Virus record (IMG/VR): IMGVR_UViG_3300042868_010462
Span: 32,001-96,000 of that record
DNA from: a virus
Strand: one strand, 5' to 3'
Length of the DNA: 64,000 nucleotides
The notes below the pieces were generated by a model, which saw nothing but the letters and a program-made list of their open reading frames with translations, ran no database searches and was not told where the DNA came from. The position numbers were made by a program, and so were the translations under genes. Shown here one piece after another: positions 61,574 to 61,906 of the stretch. The number at the start of each line of letters is the position of its first letter. Positions within the stretch are counted from its first letter, which is position 1.

Positions 61574-61639
61574 GGCTCAGAATGATTTTTTTCCAAAGTT
61601 GCAATTTTGTTTAGTTTGCTGAACTCATTCTTTATAACC
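61574..61639 (-). ncRNA. CAGCAA-motif structured RNA, copy C
   Basis: GGUU-AUAA-AGAAUGA-GUUCAGCAAAC...UCAUUCU-G-AGCC. Confidence 0.7.
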
Positions 61640-61645
61640 TAAATT

Positions 61646-61713
61646 GACAGGATAGTGTTTGGTCAAATTTACAAGTTTTGATGTTTAAAGATTGCTGAAT
61701 CTATCCCTCGTTC
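61646..61713 (-). ncRNA. CAGCAA-motif structured RNA, copy B
   Basis: GA-ACGA-GGGAUAG-AUUCAGCAAUC...CUAUCCU-G-UC. Confidence 0.7.
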
Positions 61714-61760
61714 TATATAACGTAAATATAATTAAAAAGTTTCAAAAAGAAAAGAAAATT

Positions 61761-61906
61761 GGAAAAATTGGTTTCAGTATGGGTTTTTTGTTGAAGTTTA
61801 TTTCCGTGCGATTGGAAAAATGAGTCAACAACTCAGCCTTGTGTTCGAATGATTCAATATTTGTATCTTAGTTTGCTGGAATCATACTTTATAAACCAAT
61901 TTTTCC
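61761..61906 (-). ncRNA. CAGCAA-motif structured RNA, copy A
   Basis: 14-bp basal stem, then AUAA-AGUAUG-AUUCCAGCAAAC...CAUACU-G. Confidence 0.7.

What the first reader, a model, noticed from the sequence alone, without database searches (positions are those of the whole stretch)
61592..61836. The variable inserts of the CAGCAA RNAs display anticodon-like stem-loops (possible decoys for anticodon nucleases)
Seen: copy B carries UCAAAA-CUUGUAA-AUUUGA, whose 7-nt loop CUUGUAA is identical to the anticodon loop of this phage's tRNA-Thr(UGU). Copy C carries CAAAA-UUGCAAC-UUUGG (UUGCAA as in its tRNA-Ala loop, or a Cys GCA register). Copy A carries UGAG-UUGUUGA-CUCA (U33-GUU-purine, Asn-like). Known: hosts use anticodon nucleases (PrrC, RloC, VapC and PARIS/AriB types) against phages. 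Inference: a Ro-like scaffold could present interchangeable decoy anticodon loops, or tether them for repair. The stems are short and AU-rich, so chance resemblance is possible.
Basis: inference. Interest (0 to 1): 0.72.

Follow-up and report, generated by a model that had tools for sequence, protein, structure and literature searches.

The report
Anticodon-arm mimics on phage Y-like RNAs
Two of the three small RNAs behind this phage's Ro60-like gene carry a hairpin copied from a tRNA anticodon arm, a design that recurs far above chance in related phages and may bait proteins that read or cut tRNA anticodons, though that role is untested.

Summary
Copy B (61648-61707, minus strand) carries a hairpin whose inner 7 nt, CUUGUAA, equal the anticodon loop of this phage's tRNA-Thr(UGU). 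In copy A the "Asn-like loop" UUGUUGA is one strand of a covarying 7-bp helix, not a loop.

The RNAs belong to a large family: a 7-bp closing stem, 3 nt, CNGCAA, a variable cargo, then the 3' strand and G. It sits beside DUF2828 genes in phages of many phyla. The window's DUF2828 protein is predicted to fold like Ro60.

Among 65 non-redundant short members found without reference to their inserts, 16 carry an anticodon-like hairpin (1.8 expected). Twelve loops are identical to real tRNA anticodon loops (0.16 expected). About three quarters carry other cargo.

The best reading is Y-RNA-like partner RNAs that display anticodon arms as bait for anticodon-recognising proteins. A decoy role against anticodon nucleases is plausible but untested. 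I found no paper or Rfam family describing this. Earlier notes of this scan report the same family on at least 60 other genomes.

The parts
61914..63311 (-). Gene for a 465-aa Ro60-like protein (DUF2828 + DUF7788; helical TROVE-like ring plus vWA domain with the DxSxS metal-site motif)
   Evidence: Pfam PF11443 at 1e-40 and PF25043 at 2e-51. PHROG 850 'RNA-binding protein' at 6e-154. AlphaFold model with pLDDT 75 and pTM 0.75. The top 11 Foldseek PDB hits are all Ro60/TROVE proteins, E 2e-7 to 1e-4. D271-V-S273-G-S275 is invariant in alignment A1.
61752..61915 (-). Copy A: large Y-like RNA. It has a 23-nt outer stem (61893-61915 with 61752-61774), the inner closing stem AGUAUGA/CCAUACU, CAGCAA at 61873-61878, and a structured cargo.
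   Evidence: Inverted repeat I1, 87% complementary. RNA fold -40 kcal/mol, z = -5.0. Orthologues in L001, L002, L021, L024 and L025.
61821..61835 (-). UUGUUGA (61825-61831) more likely pairs with 61788-61794.
   Evidence: a 7-bp helix with four different covarying sequence pairs in orthologues. GAG/CUCA never varies.
61788..61794 (-). UCAACAA, the 3' strand of the covarying helix in copy A. The helix encloses the hairpin UUUCC-AAUCGCAC-GGAAA (61801-61818).
61648..61707 (-). Copy B: short Y-like / Class I-like RNA. Closing stem GGGAUAG/CUAUCCU, then AUU, CAGCAA (61692-61697), 10-nt linker, hairpin, 7-nt linker, 3' strand and G.
   Evidence: Covariance model R1, 64 bits, E 2e-10. Closing stem with compensatory changes in 6 of 7 pairs.
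61663..61681 (-). Copy B anticodon-arm mimic: UCAAA / A-CUUGUAA-A / UUUGA. Inner loop 61669-61675 = tRNA-Thr(UGU) loop.
   Evidence: The same hairpin occurs in L002 and L019; L001 has UCAA/A-UUUGUAA-A/UUGA.
61578..61631 (-). Copy C: short Y-like RNA. Closing stem AGAAUGA/UCAUUCU, then GUU, CAGCAA (61616-61621), hairpin, A-rich linker, 3' strand and G.
   Evidence: R1 47 bits, E 1e-6. Sub-threshold Rfam hit to Dicty_Class_I_RNA, 20.9 bits against a gathering score of 41.5.
61594..61609 (-). Copy C hairpin CAAA / AUUGCAAC / UUUG. The 8-nt loop reads as Cys(GCA) in one register (UUGCAAC) or Ala(UGC) in the other (AUUGCAA).
   Evidence: Orthologous stems covary fully: ACAA/UUGU, UAAG/CUUA, UUUUG/CAAAA, UCAA/UUGA, AAGA/UCUU.
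53244..53318 (-). tRNA-Thr(UGU) of the phage, a comparator: anticodon arm CUUGA-CUUGUAA-UCAAG.
   Evidence: ARAGORN; loop extracted. The stem differs from copy B, so copy B is not a recent copy of this gene.

Best explanation
Copies A, B and C are partner RNAs of the adjacent Ro60-like (DUF2828) protein, analogous to Y RNAs.

Each has a conserved "handle": a closing stem, 3 nt, then single-stranded CNGCAA, and a G after the 3' strand. The handle is inferred to dock on the protein. Each also has a variable cargo that is displayed.

In copies B and C, and in about a quarter of the short family members, the cargo is a true mimic of a tRNA anticodon arm. It has a 4-5 bp stem, U at position 33, a real anticodon triplet and A at position 37. 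It sits at a fixed distance from the handle. This part is shown.

The inferred function is that the particle presents anticodon loops as bait to proteins that recognise them. The leading candidates are host anticodon nucleases that attack tRNAs during infection, so that the RNA titrates or traps them. tRNA-modifying or repair enzymes are other possible clients.

Copy A instead carries a larger folded cargo and is not an anticodon mimic.

My probabilities: about 0.85 that B and C are genuine anticodon-arm mimics on a Ro60-like partner-RNA scaffold; about 0.5 that they act as bait for anticodon-recognising proteins; about 0.3 that the clients are specifically defence nucleases.
For: Protein: the predicted fold matches Ro60/TROVE structures.

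Linkage: an insert-blind handle pattern occurs 124 times on the gene's strand and twice on the opposite strand in 176 loci fetched by the protein. R1 finds only copies B and C in the 148-kb record.

Structure: the closing stem and the cargo stem covary. 81.5% of cells are paired against 57% in shuffles, and 10 of 12 pairs show double changes.

Mimicry:
- 16 of 65 representatives have an anticodon-like hairpin, against 1.8 +/- 1.3 in shuffles.
- 12 have loops identical to real tRNA loops, against 0.16 expected; 0 of 1000 shuffles reach either value.
- The same result holds with dinucleotide shuffles and with natural segments.
- With positions 32, 33, 37 and 38 held fixed, 11 of 14 loops are exact matches against 3.0 expected, and all 14 triplets are real anticodons.
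- CUUUUAA sits on stems that covary among divergent phages: UCAAA/UUUGA, UUUGA/UCAAA and UAGA/UCUA (a further case).
- Orthologous elements switch triplet while keeping the loop frame: CUGCAAA and AUCCAAA in L166 and L169, AUCCAAA in L025.
- Geometry is constant: a 5' linker of about 10 nt and a 3' linker of about 7 nt.

Context: tRNA arrays, RNA ligase, RtcB, and kinase plus phosphoesterase genes lie beside homologues in cultured phages.

Literature: the Listeria phage CKA15 homologue is found in virions and lies within 2 kb downstream of three very highly transcribed unannotated regions (PMC12282133). AriB cuts tRNA-Lys(UUU), Thr(UGU) and Asn(GUU) (PMC12409363).
Against: - No binding, expression or cleavage data exist for this phage.
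- The hairpins are thermodynamically marginal (about -0.5 kcal/mol); the minimum-energy fold often misses them.
- Copy B's loop is closed by A.A and copy C's loop has 8 nt, so neither is a canonical 7-nt anticodon loop.
- About 75% of short family members carry other cargo. One recurrent non-anticodon loop, UGCGGAU, is shared by E. coli phage ekra and mycobacteriophage Faith1.
- No RtcB or RNA-ligase gene lies in the held, roughly 50% complete record.
- AriB also needs contacts outside the anticodon arm, in the D-loop. A bare arm may therefore be a poor ligand for at least that nuclease.
- A catalytic nuclease is hard to titrate with a cleavable decoy.
Confidence: 0.5

Rival explanations
1. 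Repair or quality-control tether. The Ro60-like ring with these RNAs handles broken or misfolded tRNAs, phage-encoded or host. The tRNA-like cargo recruits tRNA-processing, modifying or ligating enzymes, as proposed for bacterial Rsr-YrlA in the rsr-yrlBA-rtcBA operon. It does not bait nucleases.
For: - Homologues lie next to an RNA ligase (GAP32), an RtcB-type ligase (Listeria LMTA-94), and a kinase plus phosphoesterase (DLP_6), and inside tRNA arrays.
- Large family members carry T-arm-like hairpins (8 of 98 against 1.3 expected).
- One large member gives a sub-threshold YrlA match.
- Ro60 is known to bind misfolded RNAs (PDB titles).
Against: - A repair scaffold has no obvious need to display many different intact anticodon loops.
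- No ligase was found in the held part of this phage.
- This is not exclusive with the bait model.
Confidence: 0.2
2. tRNA-derived relic. The cargo hairpins are pieces of tRNA genes captured by recombination inside tRNA arrays. The loop is kept because a U-turn loop is a stable cap, and nothing recognises it as an anticodon loop.
For: - The elements are interleaved with tRNA genes.
- The family also carries T-arm-like pieces.
- Many members do without an anticodon-like cargo.
Against: - The stems are unrelated to those of the phage's own tRNAs: Thr has CUUGA/UCAAG against UCAAA/UUUGA in copy B.
- Loops are conserved while stems covary across phages whose proteins are only 44-56% identical to the window's.
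- Triplets are always real anticodons (14 of 14 against 40% expected each).
- The hairpin sits at a fixed distance from the handle.
Confidence: 0.15
3. Antisense or kissing loops. The U-turn loops pair with complementary RNA: codon-like triplets, the CAGCAA motif, or each other (copy B UUGUAA with copy C UUGCAA).
For: - The copy B and copy C loops are complementary over 6 nt with one G.U. Copy A's UUGUUG complements CAGCAA. Both follow directly from the sequence.
- In L007-type elements UUGU pairs locally with GCAA.
Against: - There is no covariation. Window copy A has CAGCAA and L001's copy A has CUGCAA with the same UUGUUGA.
- CUUUUAA, CUGAUAA and CUCAUAA cannot pair with the motif.
- B-C complementarity is lost in L019-L023 and L003.
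Confidence: 0.05
4. Chance resemblance in AU-rich sequence.
For: - The stems are short and AU-rich, and the fold z-score of copies B and C is about -0.1.
- For copy A the resemblance is indeed spurious.
Against: None of 1000 dinucleotide shuffles, 1000 natural-segment sets or 1000 insert-blind shuffles reaches the observed counts.
Confidence: 0.03

Closest known systems
Ro60 (Rsr) with Y RNAs, especially bacterial and mycobacteriophage YrlA (Rfam RF02553; Chen et al. 2014, PMC4201824)
   Same: - Small RNAs are encoded on the same strand, next to a ring-plus-vWA protein.
- The 5' and 3' ends form a stem that serves as the presumed protein-binding module.
- The distal module mimics part of a tRNA.
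- A large element in mycobacteriophage Faith1 with the same CUACAGCAA handle gives a sub-threshold YrlA match with T and D arms.
   Different: - The protein is DUF2828, not a Pfam TROVE member. The sequence-profile match to solved TROVE proteins is only E = 0.33; the similarity is by fold.
- The handle motif is CNGCAA rather than the YrlA GNCGAA box.
- No window element reaches any Y RNA model.
- YrlA mimics the T and D arms and lacks an anticodon arm. Here the short RNAs display only an anticodon arm, with different anticodons.
Class I RNAs of dictyostelid amoebae (Rfam RF01414; Kjellin et al. 2021, PMC7919456)
   Same: - Length about 60 nt and GC about 30%.
- A short covarying terminal stem.
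- A single-stranded motif, CCUUACAGCAA, directly after the 5' strand. Its near-invariant U3, C6, C9, A10 and A11 are the positions that are invariant in the phage alignment.
- A 3' end of CUG(U) and a variable interior.
   Different: - Hits are sub-threshold: 20.9 and 18.9 bits against a gathering score of 41.5.
- Class I RNAs are reported as unique to Dictyostelia, are made from their own DUSE promoters, and have a known RRM-protein partner.
- No Ro60-like partner or anticodon-like cargo has been reported for them.
- I could not examine amoeba genomes here.
Phage counter-measures to tRNA-targeting defence, as I recall them: T4 Pnkp/Rnl1 repair of PrrC-cut tRNA-Lys; phage T5 tRNA variants that resist PARIS AriB (PMC11464382, PMC12409363)
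   Same: - The battlefield is the same (anticodon arms of Lys-UUU, Thr-UGU and others) and so is the genomic setting (phage tRNA arrays).
- Many mimics have A at the position equivalent to 39. In E. coli tRNA-Lys a U39-to-A change abolishes AriB cleavage.
   Different: Those systems replace or mend real tRNAs. Here a non-tRNA RNA displays only the arm. A decoy action is my inference and has no experimental precedent that I could find.

Membership tests
Y RNA / YrlA (partner RNA of Ro60) | Encoded near, and on the same strand as, a Ro60-type protein gene | tested here: met
   The RNAs start at the stop codon of the gene. The protein fold matches Ro60. Family-wide strand bias is 124 to 2.
Y RNA / YrlA (partner RNA of Ro60) | Terminal helix formed by the 5' and 3' ends, with a conserved protein-binding sequence | tested here: met
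   The closing stem covaries. The invariant U..C.GCAA follows it. The sequence differs from the canonical Y RNA box.
Y RNA / YrlA (partner RNA of Ro60) | Match to the curated Rfam models (RF00019, RF02553) at gathering score | tested here: not met
   No hit in the window even at E <= 10. A relative in Faith1 scores 21.7 bits against 69.
Y RNA / YrlA (partner RNA of Ro60) | Physical binding to the Ro60-type protein | not testable with these tools
   Needs co-purification or CLIP.
Dictyostelid Class I RNA (RF01414) | About 60 nt, 6-bp terminal stem, 11-nt motif CCUUACAGCAA, 3' CUGU | tested here: inconclusive
   The architecture and the invariant positions agree. The score is below gathering: 20.9 against 41.5 bits.
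tRNA gene | Cloverleaf with D and T arms and an acceptor end | tested here: not met
   ARAGORN in bacterial mode calls none of 89 short elements. There is no Rfam tRNA hit on copies A-C.
tRNA anticodon arm (mimicry of) | 7-nt loop closed by a 31-39 pair on a 5-bp stem | tested here: not met
   For the window copies: copy B has a 5-bp stem, but positions 31-39 are A.A. Copy C has a 4-bp stem and an 8-nt loop. The feature is met in relatives such as L011, L012, L089, L175 and L148.
tRNA anticodon arm (mimicry of) | Y32, U33, a real anticodon at 34-36, purine 37 | tested here: met
   Copy B's CUUGUAA equals the phage tRNA-Thr loop. Copy C's UUGCAAC equals a real tRNA-Cys loop in a related locus. 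Family enrichment is shown. Copy A does not meet it.
Anticodon-nuclease decoy | Binds or inhibits an anticodon nuclease, or is cut by it | not testable with these tools
   Needs biochemistry or phage genetics.

The most novel reading that the evidence does not exclude
Phage Ro60-like particles carry a repertoire of interchangeable anticodon arms that act as poorly cleavable baits. These trap host anticodon nucleases such as PrrC, RloC, PARIS AriB and VapC-type enzymes. This would be a general RNA-based anti-defence against tRNA-targeting immunity. In some phages the protein is already delivered in the virion.
Probability: 0.27. Interest if true: 0.9.

Novelty: new variant of a known kind. Interest (0 to 1): 0.74.

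Why it matters
tRNA cleavage is now recognised as a common bacterial defence, and phages are known to answer it with spare tRNAs and repair enzymes. An RNA that shows only the anticodon arm, mounted on the partner-RNA scaffold of a Ro60-like protein, would be a third kind of answer.

It would also give a concrete function to a protein family (DUF2828) present in 709 cultured-phage records. These include Felixounavirus, P100-like Listeria phages and Campylobacter phages.

It would extend the "Y RNAs mimic tRNA" idea from the T and D arms to the anticodon arm. It also ties in the unexplained Class I RNAs of Dictyostelium, which share the handle.

The idea is directly testable in laboratory phage-host pairs.

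Tried and rejected
1. A fourth copy at 61440-61510 (UUCAGCCA). R1 does not match it, and earlier notes read the stretch as a leader-peptide attenuator. Dropped.

2. A pseudoknot between the cargo loop (UUGY) and GCAA of the handle. There is no covariation, and most loops cannot pair.

3. A kissing pair between the copy B and copy C loops. It is not conserved in relatives.

4. Minimum-energy folding as a test of the hairpins. It is uninformative because the stems are too weak, so I used covariation and a combinatorial hairpin finder instead.

5. Possible selection bias, because model R1 contains a loop consensus. I repeated the census with an insert-blind pattern and got the same result.

6. 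ARAGORN in mitochondrial mode. It made calls only on the complementary strand, so it was uninformative.

7. A sequence-profile search of the PDB. It gave only E = 0.33 to TROVE proteins; the fold search was needed.

8. RtcB and RNA-ligase families in the phage's own record. None was found, but the record is only about 50% complete.

9. A literature search for DUF2828, for anticodon decoys and for anticodon-stem-loop mimics in phages. Nothing described this.

Full report
**What is there**

On the minus strand a 465-aa gene (61914-63311) is followed at once by three RNAs. Pfam files the protein under DUF2828 and DUF7788, and PHROGs under "RNA-binding protein". An AlphaFold model (pLDDT 75, pTM 0.75) finds Ro60/TROVE proteins as its 11 best PDB matches. 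These include Thermus phage phiLo Ro60, Xenopus Ro and Deinococcus Rsr, with E from 2e-7 to 1e-4 over about 500 aligned columns. A vWA metal-site motif, D271-x-S-x-S, is invariant in relatives. "Ro-like scaffold" is therefore justified by fold, not by sequence; the profile search gave only E = 0.33.

**Anatomy of the three RNAs** (coordinates checked)

Each RNA has a 7-bp closing stem, 3 nt, single-stranded CAGCAA, a variable cargo, an A-rich linker, the 3' strand and a G.
- Copy A (61752-61915) adds a 23-nt outer stem and folds well (z = -5.0).
- Copy B is 61648-61707 and copy C is 61578-61631. Each is about 55-60 nt, and neither is thermodynamically distinguishable from shuffles.

**Checking the quoted hairpins**

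- Copy B: UCAAA/UUUGA encloses A-CUUGUAA-A. The inner 7 nt equal the loop of the phage's tRNA-Thr(UGU). Positions 31-39 would be A.A.
The hairpin is CAAA/UUUG with the loop AUUGCAAC. UUGCAAC is a real tRNA-Cys(GCA) loop in a related phage. AUUGCAA is one base from the loop UUUGCAA of a tRNA-Ala-like gene at 54456-54533, which ARAGORN and Rfam both miss. Most orthologues favour the Cys register (UCUGCAAAC, AAUGCAAAC).
- Copy A: UUGUUGA pairs perfectly with UCAACAA (61788-61794). The orthologous pairs are UUGGUUU/AAAUCAA, GGUUAGU/ACUAACC and UGGUUAAA/UUUAACCA. RNAalifold and the minimum-energy fold choose this helix. The flanking GAG/CUCA never varies. The "Asn-like loop" is therefore a helix strand.

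**The family**

I fetched 175 loci from viral contigs by the protein.
- Thirteen short elements align with their cargo loops in register.
- The closing stem has compensatory changes in 6 of 7 pairs, and the cargo stem in 4 of 4.
- A covariance model, R1, finds about 160 matches. All but a handful lie on the gene's strand and within about 1 kb of the gene, upstream or downstream. They are often in tandem and sometimes interleaved with tRNA genes.
- In the phage's own 148-kb record R1 matches only copies B and C.
- The same handle lies beside DUF2828 genes of cultured phages of Listeria, Campylobacter, Klebsiella, Mycobacterium and E. coli.
- No Rfam family reaches its threshold.
- The nearest models are YrlA, for a large element in mycobacteriophage Faith1 (21.7 against 69 bits), and Dicty_Class_I_RNA, for short elements including copy C (20.9 against 41.5 bits).
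- The Class I motif CCUUACAGCAA has the same invariant positions, and the RNAs share length, terminal stem and a 3' CUG(U).

**Is the anticodon likeness more than chance?**

I used a combinatorial hairpin finder requiring at least 4 bp and a 7-nt loop, or a 9-nt loop with an unpaired flanking pair.
- Among 62 representatives of the R1 matches, 10 have a strict 7-nt YU-NNN-R-N loop (1.2 +/- 1.1 in dinucleotide shuffles).
- 14 qualify if 9-nt loops are included (2.4 +/- 1.5 expected).
- 11 have loops identical to one of the 53 distinct anticodon loops of the tRNA genes in these same loci (0.34 +/- 0.57 expected).
- No shuffle out of 1000 reaches any of these values.
- Random natural segments from the same loci, GC-matched or not, give the same expectations.

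R1 contains a loop consensus, so I repeated the census with a pattern that ignores the insert.
- The pattern gives 124 matches on the gene strand and 2 on the other.
- Among 65 representatives, 16 are anticodon-like (1.8 expected) and 12 are exact (0.16 expected), again with 0 of 1000 shuffles reaching these values.
- With positions 32, 33, 37 and 38 held fixed, 11 of 14 loops are exact against 3.0 expected, and all 14 triplets are real anticodons, each with a chance probability of 40%.

The loops seen are:
- exact matches: Thr-UGU, Lys-UUU, Cys-GCA, Met-CAU, Arg-UCU, Phe-GAA and Ser-UGA, plus one less certain Val-GAC case (L047);
- near matches: Ile-GAU, His-GUG, Trp-CCA and Ile-UAU.

CUUUUAA sits on covarying stems in divergent phages. 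Orthologous elements swap triplets within the same frame. The hairpin lies about 10 nt after CAGCAA and about 7 nt before the 3' strand. The stems do not resemble the phage's own tRNA stems, and ARAGORN calls none of the elements a tRNA.

About three quarters of short members carry other cargo: GNRA hairpins, no hairpin at all, or the recurrent loop UGCGGAU in phages ekra and Faith1. Some large members carry T-arm-like hairpins (8 of 98 against 1.3 expected).

**How it probably works**

Shown:
- a Ro60-fold protein gene linked to a conserved RNA handle;
- cargo hairpins that are selected to look like anticodon arms of varying identity.

Inferred:
- the handle docks on the protein as Y RNAs do on Ro60;
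- the cargo is displayed to proteins that recognise anticodon loops.

Context points to tRNA damage and defence.
- Homologues sit in tRNA arrays and beside an RNA ligase, an RtcB ligase, or kinase plus phosphoesterase genes.
- The Listeria phage CKA15 homologue is packaged in virions and lies within 2 kb downstream of three extremely highly transcribed unannotated regions on the same strand (PMC12282133).
- PARIS AriB cuts tRNA-Lys(UUU), Thr(UGU) and Asn(GUU). A U39-to-A change blocks cleavage (PMC12409363), and many mimics have A at that position. I treat this as a lead only.

Against a simple decoy:
- AriB also reads the D-loop;
- the hairpins are weak;
- the held half of this phage has no ligase gene.

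The rivals are a repair or quality-control tether, a tRNA-derived relic, and antisense pairing. They are scored in their own section.

**Novelty**

Y RNAs that mimic the T and D arms of tRNA are known (PMC4201824). A paper on a Listeria phage guessed that abundant RNAs near this gene might be Y RNAs (PMC12282133). I found no description of the CNGCAA handle in phages, or of anticodon-arm cargo, in papers or in Rfam.

Earlier notes of this scan report the same family, its anticodon mimics and the Dictyostelium link on at least 60 other genomes. I reached the same points independently from this window and its relatives before reading those notes.

Noticed in passing
window 54456-54533 (-): A tRNA-Ala(UGC)-like gene: acceptor GGGGGCA...UGUCUCCACCA, anticodon arm GGAUA-UUUGCAA-UAUCU, T arm GGUGAG-UUUGAUU-CUCAC, with an unusual D region. 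Neither ARAGORN nor Rfam calls it.
   Followed up: partly
window 61578-61630 (-); L181 4005-4051: Short elements give sub-threshold hits to Rfam Dicty_Class_I_RNA (RF01414). The handle (terminal stem + UUACAGCAA + 3' CUG) matches the invariant positions of the Dictyostelium Class I motif CCUUACAGCAA. That RNA class is reported as unique to social amoebae and has no known function.
   Followed up: partly
L176 4380-4435 (E. coli phage ekra) and L181 3942-3992 (mycobacteriophage Faith1): Two very distant phages share a non-anticodon cargo loop, UGCGGAU, on different stems (CUUUU/AAAAG and UGUU/AACA). This is a second conserved cargo type of unknown meaning.
   Followed up: no
L176 4949-5075; L182 4333-4450; L181 4003-4125; L087 933-1043; L080 1331-1446: Large CNGCAA-handle elements carry GC-rich T-arm-like hairpins (for example GAAGG-UUCGAUU-CCUUC). 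They lie in unannotated gaps of tRNA arrays of cultured phages (ekra, Klebsiella phi1_175008, Faith1) and are YrlA-like.
   Followed up: partly
Literature: Listeria phage CKA15 (PMC12282133); Pectobacterium phage CBB record KU574722.1 (hit H56): The DUF2828 homologue was detected in purified virions of CKA15 (57% sequence coverage). It is annotated 'structural protein' in phage CBB. The Ro60-like protein may therefore be delivered with the DNA.
   Followed up: no
window 51350-51754 (-): With introns allowed, ARAGORN calls a tRNA-Pro(UGG) with a 323-nt intron. Rfam sees only a partial tRNA at 51648-51754.
   Followed up: no
window 41406-41787 (+): A phage-encoded tmRNA (Rfam 90 bits). A tmRNA also lies just downstream of the DUF2828 RNAs in the related locus L034 (3140-3582).
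   Followed up: no
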